This document shows positions 8,264 to 49,351 of a stretch of DNA of 64,000 bases, piece by piece. The translations under genes were made by a program, and so were the position numbers. This stretch comes from a phage. The stretch lies in NCBI GenBank assembly GCA_033580375.1, contig GCA_033580375.1_4527.1. One strand, written 5' to 3'. Each line of letters begins with the position of its first letter. Position 1 is the stretch's first letter. Under the pieces are notes generated by a model, which worked only from the letters and a program-made list of their open reading frames with translations, was not told the origin of the DNA and did not search any database.

Positions 8264-9706
8264 ATGATCGAATTAAAAAGTCTACCATACGTTGATGGCC
8301 CTCCTGATGAGGGTCAAAAACGTTTAAACTGGATTAAAAATTCAGAAGAAATAACTGGCGCTGATACGTTATACGGTTCTGAAGGAGTAATGAACCGTCC
8401 AATAACAGAAGTTCAACGAAATGTAGAAACAATTAACGATAACGTTAAGACTATCGCAGAATCTTTAGATACCGCTAATGCTGATATTGTCACAATTAAA
8501 AGTATCTTGGATGTTTCTGGTGACGTAGATGCTTTAGCACAAATTGGACATAACACTGATGATATTGAAGTATTAAAACACACTGTAAATTCACACGGTG
8601 TTGATATTTTAAACACTGAAGAAAAACTAGATGATACTATTGCTAATATCGGAGTAGTTAATCCAGAAACAGATTCAGTGTATCGTACAGTGCGTAACGA
8701 CCTTCTTTGGATTAAAACCGAATTAGGGCAATATACCGGACAAGATATTAATGGTGTCCCGACCGAAGGTAATGAAAGCACCGGGATGAAACGACGTATT
8801 ATTACTAACAGCTCAGTGTTGGTTGACCAAGGCGTTCGTTTAACCGAGTTAGAAAATAAATTTGCCGATTCTGATGTTGGGGCTCTGACAACCGAAGTTG
8901 AAAACCTCCGTCAAGAAATAGGTCCTAGACCATCGTTAACAGTACCGGTTTACACTCGTTTATCCGGTATTGATTCATCCATTTCTATCCAAACTAGAGA
9001 TATTGCGGCATTAAAAGATTTTGTTGGATATCCTAATTCAACCGCTATTAAAACTCAAGTCGAGGCCAATCGTCTTTCTATATCAACAATAAATTCAGAC
9101 ATTAACTCGCCTGGCGGTATTAAACCACGTTTGACAACGTTAGAAACTACTATAGGCTCTCCAGATTTACCAACTACTCTTCAGGGTAAGATCAAATTAA
9201 ATACCGATTCCATTTCAGGTATTAACACAGTTTTAGGTGTTGATTCTTCTAGTGGTTTACGTTTTAATGTAGCATGGCTTAATCAGGTGGTTGGCGTTGA
9301 TTCAAATGGTGGACAACCCGAACCGGCTGGTTCACTTTTATATAGGACTCGTGTTCTTGAAACTGGTGTTACCGACCTAGGCAATAACATTCAAAACGTT
9401 CAAACTGAATTGGGAACTAATTCGTCCGGTATTAAAGGACAAGTGACTAGTTTAAATAAACTTATAAGCGGTACCAACCCAAACGGTCAAACCATAGAAG
9501 AACGTGGTATATTGCCAACAGTTAAAAACCATGACACGACAATTACAGATTTAACTACGCGTGTTACCACTTTAGAAACCGACCTTGCTGCAGCAGAAGC
9601 AGAAATTCAGGCCCTTAAAGAGGCTGGATATATTGAAGATGCTCCTTCAGATGGTAAATTCTATGTTCGCAAAGATGGTGCATGGGTTGAACTTCCTACA
9701 GCTTAA
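8264..9706 (+). CDS. wac: Fibritin (whisker antigen control, neck whiskers)
   Basis: 480 aa; C-terminal GYIEDAPSDGKFYVRKDGAWVELPTA matches the T4 fibritin foldon [21 protein letters not shown]. Confidence 0.9.
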   Translation: MIELKSLPYVDGPPDEGQKRLNWIKNSEEITGADTLYGSEGVMNRPITEVQRNVETINDNVKTIAESLDTANADIVTIKSILDVSGDVDALAQIGHNTDDIEVLKHTVNSHGVDILNTEEKLDDTIANIGVVNPETDSVYRTVRNDLLWIKTELGQYTGQDINGVPTEGNESTGMKRRIITNSSVLVDQGVRLTELENKFADSDVGALTTEVENLRQEIGPRPSLTVPVYTRLSGIDSSISIQTRDIAALKDFVGYPNSTAIKTQVEANRLSISTINSDINSPGGIKPRLTTLETTIGSPDLPTTLQGKIKLNTDSISGINTVLGVDSSSGLRFNVAWLNQVVGVDSNGGQPEPAGSLLYRTRVLETGVTDLGNNIQNVQTELGTNSSGIKGQVTSLNKLISGTNPNGQTIEERGILPTVKNHDTTITDLTTRVTTLETDLAAAEAEIQALKEAGYIEDAPSDGKFYVRKDGAWVELPTA

Positions 9707-43412: not shown

Positions 43413-44231
43413 TTAACAATTTATAGTCCATTTAGACGAATCTAAAGGAAAGTTTTGAATCGTCCGCCATGGCTGCATATCGGTTGGTCCTGGGGTTCGC
43501 CAGGTATATGGAGTACGTGTTGTCGAGGGGCCACCAATTTGATTAGGCCATGCACCTGGACTTGTTGCACCAGATTCTTTAAGCAAATCCGCCAATCGTT
43601 TTAAAAGGTCTTCACGATCTGAATCTGAATTATTCTTAGGCAGAACCAAACGAGATTCAATATCATCCCACGTGTGTACACGTTGTGCAGTACGAGGAAT
43701 ATCATCACGTTCACCACGGGCCAACCAATAAATCGGTACATTAAGAATTTCTGCCGCATGGTCACAATGATGAGCTAAATCGTCAACGTAACAAATTACG
43801 TTATATTTTGTTTTAGCTAGTTCGAATAATTGTTCCTTTGAAGAATCATGACCACACATCATTACTTCAGAGAAAGCGCCTGGGAACAAAGCATTCAAAT
43901 TAAATTGTCTATTCAATCGAGCATCAATTGAATCACCTAACGCCGTTACGGCTACAAAATTATAGTCTTCTTTTAGTTTATTGATAACTCGAAGAGCATC
44001 CGAATAAGGCGCTAAGTAACGAATAAAATCAGAGCGATTATATTTTTCTATTAATTGTTTACCAAGGTTATCGTCGGTATTGAATAGTTTACCAGGAGAA
44101 ATAAATTTTTCGTCCTGAATCATTTTTAAAATATGTTCTAATGGAAGATTATATTTTTGGGCAAAATAAGGAAGTCCAGATTGCCAGCTTAAACATACAC
44201 CATCAATATCAGTCAAAATAGTAGGCTTCAT
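43413..44231 (-). CDS. HAD-superfamily hydrolase-like protein (30.2-like)
   Basis: 272 aa; N-terminal DxDG motif (ILTDIDGVCL) typical of HAD phosphatases. Confidence 0.6.
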   Translation of the reverse strand: MKPTILTDIDGVCLSWQSGLPYFAQKYNLPLEHILKMIQDEKFISPGKLFNTDDNLGKQLIEKYNRSDFIRYLAPYSDALRVINKLKEDYNFVAVTALGDSIDARLNRQFNLNALFPGAFSEVMMCGHDSSKEQLFELAKTKYNVICYVDDLAHHCDHAAEILNVPIYWLARGERDDIPRTAQRVHTWDDIESRLVLPKNNSDSDREDLLKRLADLLKESGATSPGAWPNQIGGPSTTRTPYTWRTPGPTDMQPWRTIQNFPLDSSKWTINC

Positions 44232-44695
44232 AAAGAGTCTCTTAATAGGTTTAACACATCAATAAATTCAGCTTCGGTTAGTATTGTATCATCTTTTGTT
44301 AGGTGGCTGGCCATGCTATGCTTCAAAATTTTTCCTTTAGAGGCTTGTAAGGCATCGCGAAACCCCTTGTTTTGGATCGCTGCTTCAAAATATGCATTTG
44401 TGTATAATTCTTTCCACGCTTCAGAGTATCTTGAAAATGGAACTCCTAACCAGAAGAGAGTCCCATGGTCCTGAGCTCTTGCATAAGACCTTCCAGCTTG
44501 CTGTGCAGCCAATCCAGACAACCCAAATATACGTCTTTGTTGTTCAACATTTTTCACCTTACATCCTTGGAGAAATCCTTCAAGACCTCCGAATTGAATA
44601 CCATCCATGACAAAAGGCCATTGGGCGAAATTACTTAATGCACATGACGGCCATTTGAAATTACTTCTTATTTCTAATTCAGACATCTTTAACAC
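44228..44695 (-). CDS. NADAR / YbiA (DUF1768)-like protein (30.3-like)
   Basis: 155 aa; motif ALSNFAQWPF...DG...EGFLQGCK resembles the YbiA/NADAR signature (SNF...WP...DG...E.YFQA.K). Confidence 0.55.
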   Translation of the reverse strand: MLKMSELEIRSNFKWPSCALSNFAQWPFVMDGIQFGGLEGFLQGCKVKNVEQQRRIFGLSGLAAQQAGRSYARAQDHGTLFWLGVPFSRYSEAWKELYTNAYFEAAIQNKGFRDALQASKGKILKHSMASHLTKDDTILTEAEFIDVLNLLRDSL

Positions 44696-44897
44696 TTATA
44701 ATTTCAACATCAGCCCAATGACCATAACCAGGTATACGGTCTTCGATAGATAAATTTCCGTCATTTTTAGGCATTTTAATTGACGTAACGTATGGTTCTA
44801 AACGGTTTTCTGCATAATATGGAAAAACATCTGTTACACGATAAGTAACTTCAATCATTTCCGTACCAAACAATTTCTTGATTAATTTTTTAAGCAT
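44679..44897 (-). CDS. Hypothetical protein (72 aa)
   Basis: ORF in operon orientation. Confidence 0.45.
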   Translation of the reverse strand: MLKKLIKKLFGTEMIEVTYRVTDVFPYYAENRLEPYVTSIKMPKNDGNLSIEDRIPGYGHWADVEIISVKDV

Positions 44898-44901
44898 TTT
44901 A

Positions 44902-45189
44902 TTAGAACCTCATCTGAAAGCCATGTGATTTAACATTACCGCCGCCGATATCAGAAATGTTAATTTCACTTGCAATCGAAGGATCGATGTCAATTTCACG
45001 ATTAAGTTTAGTGATAGCTAAAGTATCATGCCCATTTACTGTACGAAACTCCAAAGGACATACTACGTTGACATAGTGTTTAATTGACTCGCTAGTAGGT
45101 TGTAAATGGGCCGGAAGGTCTTTAGGTGCTTTAGAGAAAACAACTTCACAAAAGTTTTTGCGGGTATCAAAATAAGTGGTCATAAACAT
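44902..45189 (-). CDS. Hypothetical protein (95 aa)
   Basis: ORF with GAGGAA RBS 7 nt upstream of the ATG. Confidence 0.5.
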   Translation of the reverse strand: MFMTTYFDTRKNFCEVVFSKAPKDLPAHLQPTSESIKHYVNVVCPLEFRTVNGHDTLAITKLNREIDIDPSIASEINISDIGGGNVKSHGFQMRF

Positions 45190-45205
45190 AATATTTTCCT
45201 CAATA

Positions 45206-45221
45206 GGGAGCCGAAGCTCCC
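45206..45221 (-). terminator. Stem-loop GGGAGC-TTCG-GCTCCC between ORFs
   Basis: 6 bp stem directly after the upstream stop and before the RBS of the downstream gene. Confidence 0.5.
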
Positions 45222-45228
45222 AGTTAAA

Positions 45229-45594
45229 TTAGATATCGAATTCATTAAGAACTACATCAAAGATTGCTTCGAGATGTTCAGGTTTAGCTCGGTTACTCAG
45301 GATATGACGAATCCAAGTTTTAACCAGAAGTTTACGATTGACACCGTTCCAGCAAGGATGAGTACCTAAATCACGCTGACGGAAATCATCATCTAATGCA
45401 ATTTTGAAGTTGGAACCTTCCATCGTGATTGAAAGCGTGATGCCATTTTCAAATCGCATATAAACGTAATTAGGAGTCATGCACTGTTCGATTTCACAAA
45501 CTGTACCGTTTTTGTGTTTCCATAAGCAAATAACTTCAGAAGAACCAGCGATACCGTTAGAAACATATTTACGTTCGAAGTTGATGTAGTTCAT
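45229..45594 (-). CDS. Hypothetical protein (121 aa)
   Basis: ORF with own early promoter; weak similarity to the next ORF (shared CMTP motif). Confidence 0.5.
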   Translation of the reverse strand: MNYINFERKYVSNGIAGSSEVICLWKHKNGTVCEIEQCMTPNYVYMRFENGITLSITMEGSNFKIALDDDFRQRDLGTHPCWNGVNRKLLVKTWIRHILSNRAKPEHLEAIFDVVLNEFDI

Positions 45595-45635
45595 TTTATT
45601 CTCCAGATGTTTAAGTTGTTTGTTGGTACAGGTCT

Positions 45636-45664
45636 ATAATAACATAACCTGTACCAAAGTAAAC
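45636..45664 (-). promoter_or_regulatory. Early-type promoter GTTTAC-N17-TATTAT for ORF 45229..45594
   Basis: The -10 lies in the loop of an 8 bp inverted repeat GGTACAGG/CCTGTACC. Confidence 0.5.
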
Positions 45665-45668
45665 TGTT

Positions 45669-46037
45669 TTATGCAACTTTAATCCAATTGTCTAAATTTA
45701 AAACACCTTTGGCTTTCATTTTTTCGATCAGGTTATCTGCTGTAATGCGTCCATTTTGATACCATGTAACATCTTCAGAGTAACCAGTTTCTTCGTCAAC
45801 ATATGTTTCTGAACGAATTTTGCCGGTAATAATAGTTTTTAATTCGTATGTGTCACCTGTGAAAAAGTTTGCTAACACAATTTTCCAAGAGAAATCATTT
45901 GAAGGACCTTCAGGGGTCATACAACCTACGATCTCAAATTGCTCTTTGTATAACATCCACTGGAATTCTTTAATTTCGATAGCTTTATAACCGTCGTGGT
46001 CTTTACATTCGATGTATGAGTTCAGATTGATTTTCAT
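45669..46037 (-). CDS. Hypothetical protein (122 aa)
   Basis: ORF with own early promoter. Confidence 0.5.
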   Translation of the reverse strand: MKINLNSYIECKDHDGYKAIEIKEFQWMLYKEQFEIVGCMTPEGPSNDFSWKIVLANFFTGDTYELKTIITGKIRSETYVDEETGYSEDVTWYQNGRITADNLIEKMKAKGVLNLDNWIKVA

Positions 46038-46079
46038 TTTATTCTCCAGATTGTTTTATTGATTAGGTGGTACAAGTCT

Positions 46080-46108
46080 ATAGTAACACATCCTACAGGA
46101 GAGTAAAC
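46080..46108 (-). promoter_or_regulatory. Early-type promoter GTTTAC-N17-TACTAT for ORF 45669..46037
   Basis: Consensus blocks on the - strand. Confidence 0.5.
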
Positions 46109-46144
46109 ATCTTTTTAAACTTTTTCTGCCCTAAACGCACAAAA

Positions 46145-46162
46145 GGGAGACCGAAGTCTCCC
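46145..46162 (-). terminator. Stem-loop GGGAGAC-TTCG-GTCTCCC followed by TTTTGTG, after the small basic ORF
   Basis: Same hairpin as at 3313 and 62229, on the - strand. Confidence 0.6.
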
Positions 46163-46167
46163 TAAAA

Positions 46168-46344
46168 TTATGCAACAACCTTTCCAAAACGAGAAGCATC
46201 ATCTCGAAGAACTGCACGTGCTCTGCGCATGATCTTCTCAACTGTTTGATTAATACGAGAGTTCGACCCACGCTTGTATCCAGCGCGTTTAGAATCACCG
46301 ACTTTCTTTTCAACTGCTTTCTTTGCTTTAGTTTGTTTTGCCAT
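46168..46344 (-). CDS. Unannotated small, highly basic protein (58 aa)
   Basis: Not in the ORF track. Translation MAKQTKAKKAVEKKVGDSKRAGYKRGSNSRINQTVEKIMRRARAVLRDDASRFGKVVA; stop is followed at once by the terminator hairpin. Confidence 0.5.
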   Translation of the reverse strand: MAKQTKAKKAVEKKVGDSKRAGYKRGSNSRINQTVEKIMRRARAVLRDDASRFGKVVA

Positions 46345-46716
46345 TATAAATTCTCTTTAAATGAAAATGCAGGACTTATTGACATTGCCTGCTCAAGCCC
46401 TCAAGGGGAACATAGGTTTTTGGATATTTAACGACCAGGATAACCATAAACCCGTCATCATACCTTATAGCTCTTATCTGTTGCACACCGTTAGCTTAAA
46501 GGTTCCGGGTTCGATTTCTCGAGGATAAGATATATACTGATGGATATATAGGCCTTGAGGCGTACTCCCGATTAGCCATCACCTCGGGGTAGCATGCACT
46601 TACCGCTATAAGAACAACATTCAAGAGGTACACCGTAAAATTGTCGGGGCGGTACTTCTAAAACATACCGATTCGCAAATCGATAATCAGACAATTCGAC
46701 GGCTCCTCGATTTAAC

Positions 46717-46965
46717 TTACTTCAGGGTAATAACAAAATGACGAACTGCTTTACGAGCTGCTGAAGCCAGAGGCTTAGCATATTTCAATTCATCTTTCTG
46801 AGCCAGTACATCACGAAGATCGGCCTGTGCTGGATTCAGATGTTTGAAATATCGCAGGATTTCCAGTGCTTCGGCTTCAACATCAATTGACGCGCCGTAG
46901 TTTTCGTGGCCATTATTCCATGCATGGCGTTGCAGTTCAAGAGCGTGTTGTAATTGTTTAATCAT
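46717..46965 (-). CDS. rIII: rIII lysis-inhibition accessory protein
   Basis: 82 aa; sequence MIKQLQHALELQRHAWNNGHENYGASIDVEAEALEILRYFKHLNPAQ... matches T4 rIII. Confidence 0.95.
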   Translation of the reverse strand: MIKQLQHALELQRHAWNNGHENYGASIDVEAEALEILRYFKHLNPAQADLRDVLAQKDELKYAKPLASAARKAVRHFVITLK

Positions 46966-47081
46966 TTTAAATTCTCAATTCGAGATAATATTTAGTAGCC
47001 ACGTTCGTCTGAATTTCACCTTCTTTCGACAGGTCTCTCAGTTGTAGGCTACCGCTTAGAAGAGTGTTCTCTTCATATAGT

Positions 47082-47089
47082 TATTTATA
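47082..47089 (-). promoter_or_regulatory. Late promoter TATAAATA (- strand) upstream of rIII
   Basis: Reverse complement of TATTTATA immediately downstream of the gene 31 stop. Confidence 0.5.
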
Positions 47090-47422
47090 TCACTTATAAA
47101 GACACGGAATAGCTTTATAGTGGCATGTTACGAATTTCTGTTTAATTTCTTTAGGTTGTTTAAGACCTAAAGCCACAAATGGATGTGGAACATTTCGAAT
47201 TTGTCCAACTGGTAGTGGAGTCAAATCACCGACTTCAACAAAACCTTCAGGAACATCAGGACCTACAGAATGAACTACACATAGTTCAGGAACTTCACCT
47301 TGAACACGTTTACCAATCACAAGTCCTGATTCGGTAACTTCTTCATCACCTGCTTGAGCGGGTTCAGAAACCAGAATGACATATTCACCAACAGCACGAA
47401 TTGGGAGTTGTACTTCAGACAT
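47090..47422 (-). CDS. 31: Co-chaperonin gp31 (GroES analogue)
   Basis: 110 aa; sequence [34 protein letters not shown]... matches T4 gp31. Confidence 0.95.
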
Positions 47423-47452
47423 CTTATTTCCTTGTTGTTTGACGATAGATTA

Positions 47453-47478
47453 ATAATACCATACTATTCGTAAAGCAT
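47453..47478 (-). promoter_or_regulatory. MotA-dependent middle promoter for gene 31
   Basis: - strand reads ATGCTTTAC - 12 nt - TATTAT, then AGGAA RBS. Confidence 0.6.
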
Positions 47479-47479
47479 A

Positions 47480-47788
47480 TTACATAAGAAGCAAACGTTC
47501 GACCGGAGTACCATCAACCGAAATTACTTTATCAAGGCGGAAAGAACGCCACTGACCTAACTTGGTATCGAATGCTCGAACTGATTCACGAGGTTCATAA
47601 CGAACTTCTGTTGCCGGATTGTTATTTTCGTATTTGACTTCAAGTTCGTCGCGAGAAGCAAACATCGTACGAACATCACCGTTAGCCTTTTCAAATACAA
47701 CACAATGAACGCCTACAGACAGAATAGTTTTAATACGTTCACGAAGAACCATAGTTTCTTGTTCAGTTAAAATCATATTATTCACCAC
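47480..47788 (-). CDS. Hypothetical protein (31.1-like)
   Basis: 102 aa ORF between cd and 31. Confidence 0.55.
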   Translation of the reverse strand: MVNNMILTEQETMVLRERIKTILSVGVHCVVFEKANGDVRTMFASRDELEVKYENNNPATEVRYEPRESVRAFDTKLGQWRSFRLDKVISVDGTPVERLLLM

Positions 47789-48359
47789 AAAAGTTTCGGA
47801 TTTGTTCCCAATTCAGAGAACGAAGATTATTACGAGAGTACTGAATTACTTCAATACCAGCTTGTTTTAGAATGTCTGCCCAATTTTCAGGAGATCGGTC
47901 ATATAATTCTGCATATACAACCTTTTTAATACCTGACTGCGTAATAGCTTTAGTACAATCAGGACATGGAGAAAGCGTCGTATATAACGTAGCACCTTCA
48001 ATAGAATTACCTTTACGAGCGGCAAACAAAATTGCATTCAATTCTGCATGGATTTCATTATTAGCAGACCATGCACTATGAGCAGCTCGATGTTCTTTGG
48101 CTAAAACAAAATTATCTACCCGTCCAAATGCTGTAGTGCCTTCTTTATGTCCAGCAACGATGACTGGGATTGGTTTATTCTTCAACCAACCGTTTTCAGA
48201 TGCATGTTCGCAACAGTTAACGCCACCTGCAGGTGAACCGTTATATCCAGTAGAGATAATGCGTCCATCTTTTTCAATGACGGCACCAACTTTCCATGAA
48301 CAACATTTTGATTCTTGAGAAATCAGATATGCAATCTGAAGGTATGTGCTAGCTTTCAT
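47778..48359 (-). CDS. cd: dCMP deaminase
   Basis: 193 aa; zinc-binding HAELNA...SPCPDC motifs of the cytidine/dCMP deaminase family. Confidence 0.9.
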   Translation of the reverse strand: MKASTYLQIAYLISQESKCCSWKVGAVIEKDGRIISTGYNGSPAGGVNCCEHASENGWLKNKPIPVIVAGHKEGTTAFGRVDNFVLAKEHRAAHSAWSANNEIHAELNAILFAARKGNSIEGATLYTTLSPCPDCTKAITQSGIKKVVYAELYDRSPENWADILKQAGIEVIQYSRNNLRSLNWEQIRNFCGE

Positions 48360-49351
48360 TATTGAACCTTATTAATATAAGTTAACAGCTCTTTAGTTTG
48401 TTCCCAACTGATGCACGCATCGGTAACGGAAACGCCATAGGACATATTATCAGAAATTTTTTGATTTCCTTCATGTAGGAACGATTCTATCATAATTCCT
48501 TTGACCAAATCATTAGCTGCTAAATTTTTACCAATACCAATTTGATTGCTATAATGCCCTTCAGCGTTTGCATGGCTACAGTCAACCATTACATAATGAT
48601 TCAGACCTACTGCCCTTGCTTTGTTAGAAGCTTCTTGAATATCAGAAGAATGATAGTTCGGGCCGTTGGTCCCGCCACGCAATACGATATGCGTATTCTG
48701 ATTACCTTCAGCTTCAACAATGCCTACAGTACCATCGACGTCCATACCCATATACCGATGAGGCCAGGCGGCACTATACATCGCGTCTGTAGCTACTTTA
48801 ATAGAACCATTGGTTGCGTTCTTGAAGCCTACGCACATCGGTAGACCTGAAGCAATTTCACGATGTGTCTGACTTTCAGTCGTACGGGCGCCAATAGCAA
48901 CCCATGAGAAAATACCAGAAAGATACTTAATCGTGAATGGGTCTAATACTTCAGTTGCTAATGGAAGTCCCATACGTAGAAGTTTACGACACAATGTTCG
49001 TGCAACTATAAGACCGTGGTTCATATCAAAACTTCCGTCAAGATATGGATCATTTACAAGACCTTTCCAACCTACGGTAGTTCGAGGCTTTTCAAAATAA
49101 ACGCGCATCACTAACAGAACATTAGGAAGACGAGTTTGAAGTTCAGCCAGACGTTTGCCGTATTCAACAGCAGCAATAGGGTCATGAATTGAACAAGGAC
49201 CTACAACAATAAGTTTGCGTGGGTCTTCACCGTTCATAATCGAATTAACTTGTTCGCGATGAGAAGCCACTTGTGATGCGTAAGCTTCCGACAAAGGAAT
49301 AATCTCAGCCAGTTCTTTTGGAGAAATAAGTTTTCCGACGACAGGTAACAT
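48359..49351 (-). CDS. 3-deoxy-D-arabino-heptulosonate-7-phosphate (DAHP) synthase, class I alpha (AroG/AroF-like); auxiliary metabolic gene
   Basis: 330 aa; motifs LIVVGPCSIHD, RVYFEKPRTTVGWKGL, GARTTESQ, DCSHAN, IESFLHEGNQ and SVTDACISW match the AroG active site. Stop overlaps the cd start (TAATG). Confidence 0.85.
   Translation of the reverse strand: MLPVVGKLISPKELAEIIPLSEAYASQVASHREQVNSIMNGEDPRKLIVVGPCSIHDPIAAVEYGKRLAELQTRLPNVLLVMRVYFEKPRTTVGWKGLVNDPYLDGSFDMNHGLIVARTLCRKLLRMGLPLATEVLDPFTIKYLSGIFSWVAIGARTTESQTHREIASGLPMCVGFKNATNGSIKVATDAMYSAAWPHRYMGMDVDGTVGIVEAEGNQNTHIVLRGGTNGPNYHSSDIQEASNKARAVGLNHYVMVDCSHANAEGHYSNQIGIGKNLAANDLVKGIMIESFLHEGNQKISDNMSYGVSVTDACISWEQTKELLTYINKVQ

What the first reader, a model, noticed from the sequence alone, without database searches (positions are those of the whole stretch)
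46168..46344. Unannotated 58 aa lysine/arginine-rich ORF missed by the length cut-off
A - strand ORF (MAKQTKAKKAVEKKVGDSKRAGYKRGSNSRINQTVEKIMRRARAVLRDDASRFGKVVA) sits in operon orientation, ends 2 nt before a canonical GGGAGAC-TTCG-GTCTCCC terminator and has protein-like composition. The overlapping + strand track ORF (46246..46431) looks spurious. Its strong positive charge suggests a nucleic-acid-binding role (internal protein, ribosome or RNA associated).
Basis: seen in the sequence. Interest (0 to 1): 0.5.

Follow-up and report, generated by a model that had tools for sequence, protein, structure and literature searches.

The report
T4 gene 30.9 orthologue, structured leader
The 58-codon reading frame is real, but it is the already catalogued phage T4 gene 30.9, a small, very basic, dispensable early protein of unknown function; the part worth attention is the 370-base RNA leader in front of it, which folds into conserved structures that match no RNA family in Rfam.

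Summary
The ORF at 46168..46344 (-) exists as described. It is the orthologue of T4 gene 30.9 (T4p212, UniProt P17310, PHROG 1427). Homologues occur in more than 1000 T4-like phage records, and the gene is annotated in close relatives and in T4, RB51 and RB69. It was "unannotated" only because of the 60-aa cut-off. Substitutions are biased to third codon positions (pN/pS 0.39; pN 0 against T4-type RB51). A UUCG-capped terminator follows the gene and keeps its shape through compensatory changes in relatives. The overlapping + strand ORF is broken by stops in most relatives. In T4 the RNA is early, the protein was not classified by mass spectrometry (only one tryptic peptide of 7 or more residues) and knock-down has no fitness cost. 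This argues against a virion internal protein. The protein has pI 11.4, a disordered basic tail, an invariant SKRAGYKRxSNxR motif and one amphipathic helix. No fold or family gives a function; RNA binding is my inference. Unexpectedly, the ORF-free 371 nt between rIII and 30.9 is modular structured RNA. One module is a 149-nt, seven-helix domain (46464..46612) with 20 of 44 pairs showing compensatory changes. It is present in 408 phage records, absent from bacterial genomes and has no Rfam match. A second module is a pseudoknot found in all 24 leaders examined.

The parts
46168..46344 (-). CDS of the gp30.9 orthologue (58 aa, pI 11.35): Lys/Ala-rich disordered tail (residues 1-17), invariant basic motif SKRAGYKRGSNSR (18-30), amphipathic helix (29-53)
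46352..46357 (-). Shine-Dalgarno-like AAGAGA, 8 nt before the ATG. It may pair with the upstream UUUUC (inconclusive)
46131..46163 (-). Intrinsic-terminator-like hairpin AGGGAGAC-UUCG-GUCUCCCU (46144-46163) with an interrupted U tract. It ends the 31-rIII-30.9 transcription unit
   Evidence: -19.2 kcal/mol, z -4.8; relatives keep the hairpin with different stems (GGACUCC/GGAGUCC, GGGAACC/GGUUCCC)
46345..46716 (-). 371-nt ORF-free intercistronic leader between rIII and 30.9. A gap of about 150-400 nt is present in every enterobacterial T4-like genus examined
46622..46709 (-). Leader module A: long hairpin enclosing an inner hairpin
   Evidence: 25 predicted pairs, 5 with compensatory changes among 8 closely related sequences
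46464..46612 (-). Leader module B: 149-nt, seven-helix structured RNA domain with about 70 invariant positions; no Rfam match
46411..46463 (-). Leader module D: H-type pseudoknot, GUAUGAUG-S1-GUU-S2-AUC-S1'-GUUAAAUAUCCAAAA-S2'
46369..46410 (-). Leader module E: CCCCUUGAGGG hairpin, then a GCAGG/CCUGC hairpin whose loop CAAUGUCAAUAAGU is conserved in sequence
   Evidence: read by eye; stem differs and loop is kept in Proteus phage L050
46717..46965 (-). rIII, the upstream cistron. No terminator or promoter-like site lies between it and 30.9
46246..46431 (+). Antisense 61-aa ORF: spurious, not a gene

Best explanation
SHOWN: the ORF is the Mosigvirus orthologue of T4 gene 30.9. It is a protein-coding gene under purifying selection, fixed immediately downstream of rIII. 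It is the last cistron of the 31-rIII-30.9 unit and is closed by its own terminator; the next gene, 30.8, appears to have its own early promoter (read by eye, below the scanner's threshold). FROM T4 LITERATURE: the RNA is early, and knock-down has no fitness effect on a laboratory host. INFERRED: gp30.9 is a small accessory early protein that works by binding RNA. The proposed contact is the invariant basic segment SKRAGYKRxSNxR together with the Arg-rich face of its single amphipathic helix, in the manner of arginine-rich-motif peptides. Its synthesis is set after transcription by the unusually long, multi-domain structured leader (modules A, B, D, E), which any transcript reading through from rIII must carry. 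The most economical model is that gp30.9 binds one of the conserved leader elements and/or a host RNA such as rRNA or mRNA, so the leader serves as an operator or sensor that tunes its translation. Identity as gp30.9: at least 0.95. RNA-binding, leader-controlled mechanism: about 0.4.
For: Identity and conservation: PHROG 1427 at E = 1.4e-30; 95% identity to the T4 protein P0002, the 'Gp30-rIII intergenic region' protein; 1007 phage records. Synteny: the order rIII, gap, 30.9, terminator, 30.8 is kept in at least 14 genera. Coding: third-position bias and pN/pS 0.39; the longer upstream starts annotated in T4 and RB51 are not frame-conserved. T4 data: RNA class early and protein class NA (PMC9697503 suppl. 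file 4); CRISPRi-ART 'Not Fit', score 0.04, p 0.26 (PMC11879866 suppl.). Early expression elsewhere: TTGACA-17-TATTAT directly upstream in L034. Protein features: pI 11.35, net +13, helix hydrophobic moment 0.59; AlphaFold2 gives a disordered N-terminus and one helix at 29-53 with pLDDT about 90; 16 invariant residues are concentrated in SKRAxYKRxSN, and the motif is kept in most of the most distant homologues. Structured leader: module B has 98.5% of cells paired and 20 of 44 pairs with compensatory changes, 0 of 500 shuffles reach this, and slid controls give 28-43% paired. Many G-U pairs fix the strand as the gene strand. Module D own-versus-swapped helix test: -6.2 against -3.4 to -3.7 kcal/mol. 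Module A has 5 compensatory pairs. No promoter-like site lies inside the leader.
Against: No experiment or homology links gp30.9 to RNA. Pfam, NCBIfam and PDB sequence searches are empty. Basic charge alone would equally suit DNA binding or an acidic protein partner. Module B is dispensable for the gene: T4, RB51, RB69, phiR1-RT, Dhakavirus and a Proteus phage lack it yet have nearly the same protein. Distant homologues have a plain promoter and short leader with no structure, so the leader is not required for the protein's function. Module order is shuffled between genera, which suits independent RNA units as well as one operator. The whole leader is not thermodynamically unusual (z = 0.0). 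Sequestration of the SD in a hairpin is weak and inconsistent in single-sequence folds. Translation of gp30.9 has not been seen by mass spectrometry.
Confidence: 0.4

Rival explanations
1. gp30.9 is a host-takeover or anti-defence peptide that acts by protein-protein contact. Its basic motif and amphipathic helix would dock on an acidic host or phage protein (for example a nuclease, an RNA-degradosome or ribosome-associated factor, or RIII/S1) rather than on nucleic acid. The structured leader would then be an unrelated set of RNA elements that share the intercistronic space.
For: The gene is early and non-essential on a laboratory host, like most T4 accessory and anti-defence genes. The hydrophobic seam on the helix (I31, V35, I38, A42, V45, L46) is conserved. 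The persistent linkage to rIII is notable, because RIII binds ribosomal protein S1 (PMC9409239). Leader modules are optional and shuffled.
Against: No partner is known. No PADLOC search was run and no defence context was examined. Neither the motif nor the family has any annotated relative.
Confidence: 0.25
2. gp30.9 is a small DNA-binding early protein (nucleoid- or transcription-associated), with a basic region followed by a short dimerising helix.
For: Its charge and its 'basic region plus amphipathic helix' layout fit. Two distant homologues carry Lys/Ala-rich, histone-H1-like C-terminal tails (P0069, P0074).
Against: There is no HTH, RHH or other DNA-binding fold; only one helix is predicted. 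There are no Pfam hits. No repeated DNA operator was seen nearby.
Confidence: 0.15
3. gp30.9 is a packaged internal or virion protein (one of the first reader's options).
For: Only its small size and positive charge.
Against: The RNA is in the early class in T4. Distant homologues have sigma-70-type early promoters. No late promoter TATAAATA lies in the leader. The N-terminus MAKQTKAKKAVEKK bears no resemblance to the IPIII capsid-targeting sequence as I recall it (MKTYQEFIAE), though AVE-K is a weak match to the protease motif (read by eye).
Confidence: 0.03
4. The ORF is not translated: it is a chance open frame inside a non-coding RNA region.
For: The protein has never been detected by mass spectrometry. 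The flanking sequence is structured RNA.
Against: The frame, length and start codon are conserved across more than 20 distinct sequences with third-position bias. pN is 0 to 0.05 against pS 0.2 to 0.5 for nearer relatives, and the shifted frame gives pN/pS 2.3. Only one tryptic peptide of 7 or more residues exists, which explains the non-detection.
Confidence: 0.02

Closest known systems
Bacteriophage T4 gp30.9 (gene 30.9, synonym 31.-2; T4p212; UniProt P17310; PHROG 1427)
   Same: Same length (58 aa), 95% identity, same position (rIII, gap, 30.9, terminator, 30.8) and same start context.
   Different: The last three residues differ (VVA against QKA). The leader in this window carries the extra 149-nt module B, which T4, RB51 and RB69 lack.
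Arginine-rich-motif RNA-binding peptides (lambda/P22/phi21 N, HIV Rev and Tat): a resemblance recalled from memory, not a test
   Same: Both are small, highly basic and largely disordered, with a short helix rich in Arg. Hairpins with GNRA-type loops lie in the adjacent RNA (module B helix 6: GAAA, GUAA, UAAA).
   Different: There is no sequence homology and no nut/boxB-like site has been demonstrated. Neither an antitermination function nor RNA binding was tested.
Autoregulated leaders of nucleic-acid-binding proteins (T4 gene 32 mRNA pseudoknot operator; ribosomal-protein leaders)
   Same: A structured 5' leader that includes an H-type pseudoknot lies upstream of a small basic protein, and the leader is conserved more strongly than needed for spacing.
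   Different: No binding of gp30.9 to its leader is shown. The leader is far longer and modular, and its modules are optional and reordered between genera.
Riboswitch aptamers and small ribozymes (comparison for module B only)
   Same: Module B is a multi-helix junction of about 150 nt with many invariant unpaired nucleotides and covarying stems, placed in a 5' UTR.
   Different: It matches none of 4227 Rfam families even at E <= 10. No ligand, cleavage site or clear expression platform is known. The downstream gene gives no metabolic clue.
Phage-encoded small ribosomal proteins (e.g. bS21)
   Same: Small, Lys/Arg-rich and phage-encoded.
   Different: No Pfam ribosomal-protein family matches the protein or its distant homologues at E <= 10.

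Membership tests
T4 gp30.9 family (PHROG 1427) | Significant sequence match to the family profile | tested here: met
   phrog_1427 at E = 1.4e-30 covering residues 1-56; 95% identity to the T4 protein
T4 gp30.9 family (PHROG 1427) | Position immediately downstream of rIII and upstream of 30.8, on the same strand | tested here: met
Protein-coding gene | Frame conserved with synonymous-biased substitution | tested here: met
   Differences by codon position 1812/1332/3421; pN/pS 0.39; shifted frame 2.3
Rho-independent terminator | GC-rich hairpin followed by a U tract, conserved in relatives | tested here: met
   -19.2 kcal/mol, z -4.8; hairpin kept with compensatory stem changes in 11 relatives. 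The U tract here is interrupted, so the simple scanner missed it. Termination itself was not measured
T4 internal proteins (IPI/IPII/IPIII) | N-terminal capsid-targeting sequence ending in a (L/I)-x-E protease site (feature recalled from memory); packaged in the head | tested here: not met
   The N-terminus MAKQTKAKKAVEKK bears no resemblance to the IPIII targeting sequence as I recall it (read by eye); AVE-K is a weak match to the protease motif. The RNA is early rather than late in T4. Packaging itself is not testable here
Bacterial/phage ribosomal proteins (bS21, bL32-36 etc.) | Match to a ribosomal-protein Pfam family | tested here: not met
   No Pfam hit at E <= 10 for the protein; only sub-threshold unrelated hits for 10 distant homologues
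Arginine-rich-motif RNA-binding peptides | Specific binding of the basic segment to an RNA hairpin | not testable with these tools
   Only composition and a predicted helix are available
Structured non-coding RNA (module B) | Base pairs supported by compensatory substitutions beyond controls, and strand-specific | tested here: met
   20 of 44 pairs compensatory; 98.5% paired against 28-43% in slid controls; 0 of 500 shuffles; many G-U pairs
Any described RNA family (Rfam 15) | Covariance-model match | tested here: not met
   No match in 46330-46730 at E <= 10. In 44000-49000 at E <= 1 the only matches are to the terminator hairpin
Riboswitch (module B) | Aptamer plus an expression platform that changes with ligand; a ligand | tested here: inconclusive
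   Aptamer-like architecture and a 5'-UTR location are met. SD sequestration is weak and inconsistent. The ligand is not testable

The most novel reading that the evidence does not exclude
The rIII-30.9 intercistronic region of enterobacterial T4-like phages is an undescribed multi-domain regulatory RNA. Its 149-nt module B (seven helices, about 70 invariant positions, phage-only, no Rfam family) would be a new class of ligand-sensing, protein-sensing or catalytic RNA. Together with the pseudoknot found in every leader examined (module D), it would control or partner the small basic protein gp30.9, either as a phage-encoded switch or as a small RNP. That the structures are real is about 0.9 likely. 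That module B is a new functional class with a sensing, regulatory or catalytic role is about 0.3.
Probability: 0.3. Interest if true: 0.8.

Novelty: already known. Interest (0 to 1): 0.33.

Why it matters
The ORF itself changes nothing. It is T4 gene 30.9, and the only lesson is that a 60-aa cut-off hides known small phage genes. Two things are still worth knowing. First, gp30.9 is one of the most sequence-conserved unknown accessory proteins in this gene block, with 16 invariant residues across genera, yet it has no assigned function. Second, it sits behind an RNA leader with strong evidence of conserved structure. Part of that leader is a riboswitch-sized domain present in about 400 sequenced coliphages and Klebsiella, Enterobacter, Serratia and Erwinia phages, but not in T4 or RB69. 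That absence may explain why it was never noticed. If the RNA is a sensor or a ribozyme, it would be a new RNA class in easily manipulated phages, and it would give the first functional handle on gp30.9.

Tried and rejected
- Remote homology for the protein gave nothing usable. Pfam, NCBIfam and PDB sequences were empty.
- A profile search of 1.84 billion representative proteins found only 16 small unannotated relatives; the four whose genomic context I checked lie in T4-like gene neighbourhoods.
- AlphaFold2 gives one helix and a disordered tail (pLDDT 68). I did not run fold searches, because a single helix gives meaningless matches.
- A tRNA-like remnant in the leader was suspected by eye; ARAGORN finds none.
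- Rfam was run at permissive thresholds and found nothing in the leader.
- The module B core motif was searched in 185,579 bacterial and archaeal genomes with no match. The metagenome scan returned only near-identical T4-like contigs in the same context.
- Folding the whole leader as one sequence gives a z-score of 0.0, so thermodynamic stability is not evidence here.
- SD sequestration by a covarying anti-SD hairpin looked attractive by eye, but single-sequence folds are weak (-3.6 to -11.5 kcal/mol) and inconsistent. I left it as inconclusive.
- Extra pseudoknots inside module B (P2 loop with AGCU; UGCAU with GUGCA) were checked by eye against the alignment and are not supported by covariation.
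- The short ORFs in the leader (the ATGATG frame used for the 97-aa T4 annotation, and the 45-aa ORF annotated in ESh27) are rejected. Indels of 1, 2 and 7 nt and non-conserved stops break the frames.
- Literature: no paper in the held library describes a function for 30.9 or an RNA element in this gap. The specialised papers (Driukas & Nivinskas 2003; Truncaite et al. 2006) and the Miller et al. 2003 review are not held.

Full report
**1. Observation**

The window is a T4-like phage of the genus Mosigvirus. A 1.5-kb stretch around the finding is 99% identical to Shigella phage ESh27 and Escherichia phage phiC120.

Its neighbours on the same strand are, in order: dCMP deaminase, a 31.1-like gene, gp31 co-chaperonin, rIII (46717..46965), a 371-nt ORF-free gap, the ORF, a hairpin, and a 30.8-like gene. 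An SD-like AAGAGA lies 8 nt before the ATG.

The hairpin AGGGAGAC-UUCG-GUCUCCCU (46144-46163) begins 4-5 nt after the stop codon, not 2 nt. It folds at -19.2 kcal/mol with z = -4.8. The simple terminator scanner missed it, probably because the U tract is interrupted.

**2. Identity**

- The protein matches PHROG 1427 at E = 1.4e-30.
- tblastn finds it in 1007 phage records, some annotated 'gp30.9 hypothetical protein'.
- The closest named protein is the T4 'Uncharacterized 11.1 kDa protein in Gp30-rIII intergenic region', 95% identical over the 58 residues.
- T4 RefSeq lists 30.9 (T4p212, 130364..130540, 177 nt, UniProt P17310).
- RB69 lists it with the T4 synonym 31.-2.
- ESh27 and phiC120 annotate the same 177-nt CDS.

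The ORF is therefore 'unannotated' only because of the first stage's length cut-off. The longer N-terminal extensions annotated in T4 (97 aa) and RB51 (72 aa) are not real. A 1-nt indel and stop codons break that frame between relatives, and the window has a stop five codons upstream of the ATG.

**3. Is it a gene?**

Yes. I compared a 30-codon core of 24 distinct homologous CDSs.

| Measure | Result |
|---|---|
| Differences by codon position 1 / 2 / 3 | 1812 / 1332 / 3421 |
| Pooled pN/pS | 0.39 |
| Against RB51 | pS 0.21, pN 0 |
| Against Klebsiella phage PKO111 | pS 0.46, pN 0.04 |
| Shifted frame pN/pS | 2.3 |

The antisense + strand ORF 46246..46431 is broken by stops in 10 of the 13 relatives checked, so it is spurious.

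The terminator hairpin is present after the gene in all 11 relatives inspected. The stem sequences differ and the loop is mostly UUCG.

**4. What is known about expression and need**

In the time-resolved T4 transcriptome and proteome, 30.9 RNA is in the early class and the protein has no temporal class. Its neighbours rIII and 30.8 were classified (PMC9697503, supplementary files 4 and 6). Non-detection is expected, because trypsin leaves only one peptide of 7 or more residues, INQTVEK.

CRISPRi-ART knock-down of T4 30.9 is 'Not Fit' (score 0.04, p 0.26). Knock-down of gene 31, two genes upstream, is strongly 'Fit' (PMC11879866 supplement). The gene is therefore dispensable on a laboratory host.

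A 2003 paper on in-vivo expression of rIII and 30.9 exists (Driukas & Nivinskas, cited in PMC9409239) but is not held.

In distant relatives the gene stands alone behind a sigma-70-type early promoter:

- A metagenomic T4-like contig has rIII, terminator, TTGACA-17-TATTAT, an 88-aa homologue, terminator.
- Pseudomonas phage PspYZU05 has gp31, promoter, a 92-aa homologue, and no rIII.

Early expression argues against the 'internal virion protein' reading.

**5. The protein**

It has pI 11.35 and net charge +13. AlphaFold2 with the family alignment gives a disordered N-terminal half and one helix at residues 29-53, with pLDDT about 90 there and a mean of 68.

The alignment shows a variable Lys/Ala tail, an invariant block S18-K-R-A-x-Y-K-R-x-S-N, and conserved R41, R43, V45, F53 and G54. 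The most distant relatives mostly keep SKRAGYKRKSNKR(I/V)(D/N) followed by an amphipathic, Arg/Lys-rich helix.

The helix has a hydrophobic seam (I31, V35, I38, A42, V45, L46) and a hydrophobic moment of 0.59.

Nothing in Pfam, NCBIfam or the PDB matches. Function therefore rests on inference. A basic segment followed by an amphipathic helix is typical of RNA-binding arginine-rich peptides. It is also compatible with DNA binding or with docking on an acidic protein.

**6. The surroundings: a structured leader**

T4-like genomes are tightly packed, yet every enterobacterial genus examined keeps an ORF-free gap of about 150-400 nt between rIII and 30.9. Aligning these gaps shows conserved modules.

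**Module B (46464..46612)**

- It is present in the window and in 408 phage records. These span Mosigvirus, some Tequatrovirus, Gaprivervirus, Jiaodavirus, Karamvirus, Moonvirus, Kanagawavirus, Roskildevirus and Kagamiyamavirus, plus Serratia phages.
- There is one copy per record. It is unannotated or overlaid by dubious short ORFs.
- On 23 distinct sequences RNAalifold predicts 44 pairs in 7 helices.
- 98.5% of cells are paired and 20 pairs show changes on both sides. No shuffle out of 500 reaches this. Sliding the partners by 1-3 columns drops pairing to 28-43% and compensatory pairs to 7 or fewer.
- ESh27, 99% identical to the window overall, differs by a G-C to A-U double change in the closing helix.
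- Frequent G-U pairs and GNRA-type loops (GAAA, GUAA, UAAA) place the RNA on the gene strand.
- About 70 positions are invariant, many of them unpaired: CGGCAAGUGCAUG, GGCCUA, ACCCGGA, GCUAACGGUGUGCAACAGAU.
- No Rfam family matches, even at E <= 10.
- The core motif is absent from 185,579 bacterial and archaeal genomes. Metagenome hits are all T4-like phages with the same consensus.
- A covariance model finds one copy in the window. It finds none in T4-type RB51, phiR1-RT, RB69, a Dhakavirus, a Proteus Gelderlandvirus or PspYZU05.
- RB69 and the Dhakavirus carry an unrelated insert of about 50 nt at the same junction.

**Other modules**

- **Module D (46411..46463)** is an H-type pseudoknot present in all 24 leaders checked, including T4-type ones. 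Each sequence's own helix partners pair better than partners swapped between sequences: S1 4.7 against 3.8 bp and -6.2 against -3.4 kcal/mol; S2 5.7 against 4.4 bp and -6.2 against -3.7 kcal/mol. Variants such as UGUUGGUU/AACCAACG, GGUGGU/ACCACC and UGUGAG/CUCACA are clearly compensatory. It occurs once in the window.
- **Module A (46622..46709)** has 25 predicted pairs, 5 of them compensatory among only 8 close sequences.
- **Module E** has a hairpin whose 14-nt loop is kept while the stem changes.

The order of B and D is swapped in some genera. The leader as a whole is not unusually stable (z = 0.0), so the evidence is covariation and not energy. No promoter-like or terminator-like site lies between rIII and 30.9. 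Transcripts that read through from rIII should therefore carry the structured RNA in front of 30.9.

**7. Most likely mechanism**

Shown:

- The ORF is an orthologue of T4 30.9.
- It is protein-coding and under purifying selection.
- It is the last cistron before a terminator.
- It is preceded by covariation-supported RNA structures.

From the literature, for T4: the RNA is early and the gene is non-essential.

Inferred: gp30.9 binds RNA through its invariant basic block and the Arg face of its helix. The leader acts as an operator or sensor that sets its translation, possibly bound by gp30.9 itself. This would resemble the pseudoknot operator of T4 gene 32 and ribosomal-protein leaders. I put this at about 0.4.

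The rivals are a protein-partner or anti-defence peptide (0.25), a DNA binder (0.15), a virion protein (0.03) and a non-coding region (0.02).

The main points against the leading model are:

- There is no direct evidence of RNA binding.
- Module B is optional, and the leader is absent in distant homologues.
- SD sequestration could not be demonstrated.

**8. Comparison and novelty**

The ORF is a member of the gp30.9 family; the sequence, synteny and coding tests are all met. It is already known, though functionally uncharacterised. It is not a member of any ribosomal-protein family, and it shows no sign of the T4 internal proteins (tests not met). The resemblance to arginine-rich RNA-binding peptides is functional analogy only.

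Module B works like a riboswitch aptamer or small ribozyme in architecture. It belongs to no described RNA family, and I found no publication describing it in the library available. That search cannot be exhaustive.

**9. Verdict**

As a finding about a 'missed ORF' this is ordinary and already explained, so interest is low. The context raises it somewhat. A riboswitch-sized, phage-specific structured RNA and a pseudoknot found in every leader examined lie directly upstream, in experimentally tractable coliphages. They deserve a finding of their own.

Noticed in passing
window 46464..46612 (-): Module B is a 149-nt, seven-helix structured RNA with about 70 invariant positions and 20 of 44 pairs showing compensatory changes. 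It is present once in each of 408 phage records, between rIII and 30.9. It is absent from T4, RB51 and RB69, and from bacterial genomes, and it matches no Rfam family. It is a candidate new RNA class (riboswitch-like, ribozyme-like or protein-binding).
   Followed up: yes
window 46411..46463 (-): Module D is a conserved H-type pseudoknot, GUAUGAUG-S1-GUU-S2-AUC-S1'-GUUAAAUAUCCAAAA-S2'. It is present in all 24 enterobacterial T4-like rIII-30.9 leaders checked, T4-type ones included. Both stems covary. Its ATGATG was used as the start of the erroneous 97-aa T4 30.9 annotation.
   Followed up: yes
window 46622..46709 (-): Module A is a long hairpin with an inner hairpin directly after the rIII stop codon. 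It is shared with T4, RB69, VR26 and Dhakavirus, and 5 of 25 pairs are compensatory among 8 close sequences.
   Followed up: partly
window 46369..46410 (-); L050 about 780-840: Module E is a CCCCUUGAGGG hairpin plus a second hairpin. The 14-nt loop of the second hairpin, CAAUGUCAAUAAGU, is sequence-conserved even where the stem is different (Proteus phage). This suggests a recognition site for a trans-acting factor.
   Followed up: partly
junction of modules A and D: window about 46613-46621 and 46464; L052 (RB69) 8440-8510; L049 705-760: This junction is an insertion hot spot. T4/RB51 have nothing there, the window's lineage has module B, and RB69 and Dhakavirus have an unrelated insert of about 50 nt. 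The order of modules B and D is swapped in Jiaodavirus, Serratia and Edwardsiella phages, which suggests shuffling of RNA modules.
   Followed up: partly
window 46080..46107 (-): A likely early promoter for the 30.8-like gene (TTTACT, 16 nt, TACTAT) lies just after the 30.9 terminator, at the position of the T4-type GTTTACA...TAGTATTAT. It falls below the scanner's threshold and was read by eye only.
   Followed up: no
window 48359..49351 (-): A 330-aa ORF upstream of cd is annotated in relatives as phospho-2-dehydro-3-deoxyheptonate aldolase (DAHP synthase). This is an auxiliary metabolic gene not found at this position in T4.
   Followed up: no
public records, e.g. KMB38, pEK20, bov9_1, EC101: Several GenBank records label the 30.9 orthologue '1,4-alpha-glucan (glycogen) branching enzyme, GH-13-type'. 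UniRef carries the same name for one member. This is a propagated mis-annotation of a protein of about 60 aa.
   Followed up: no
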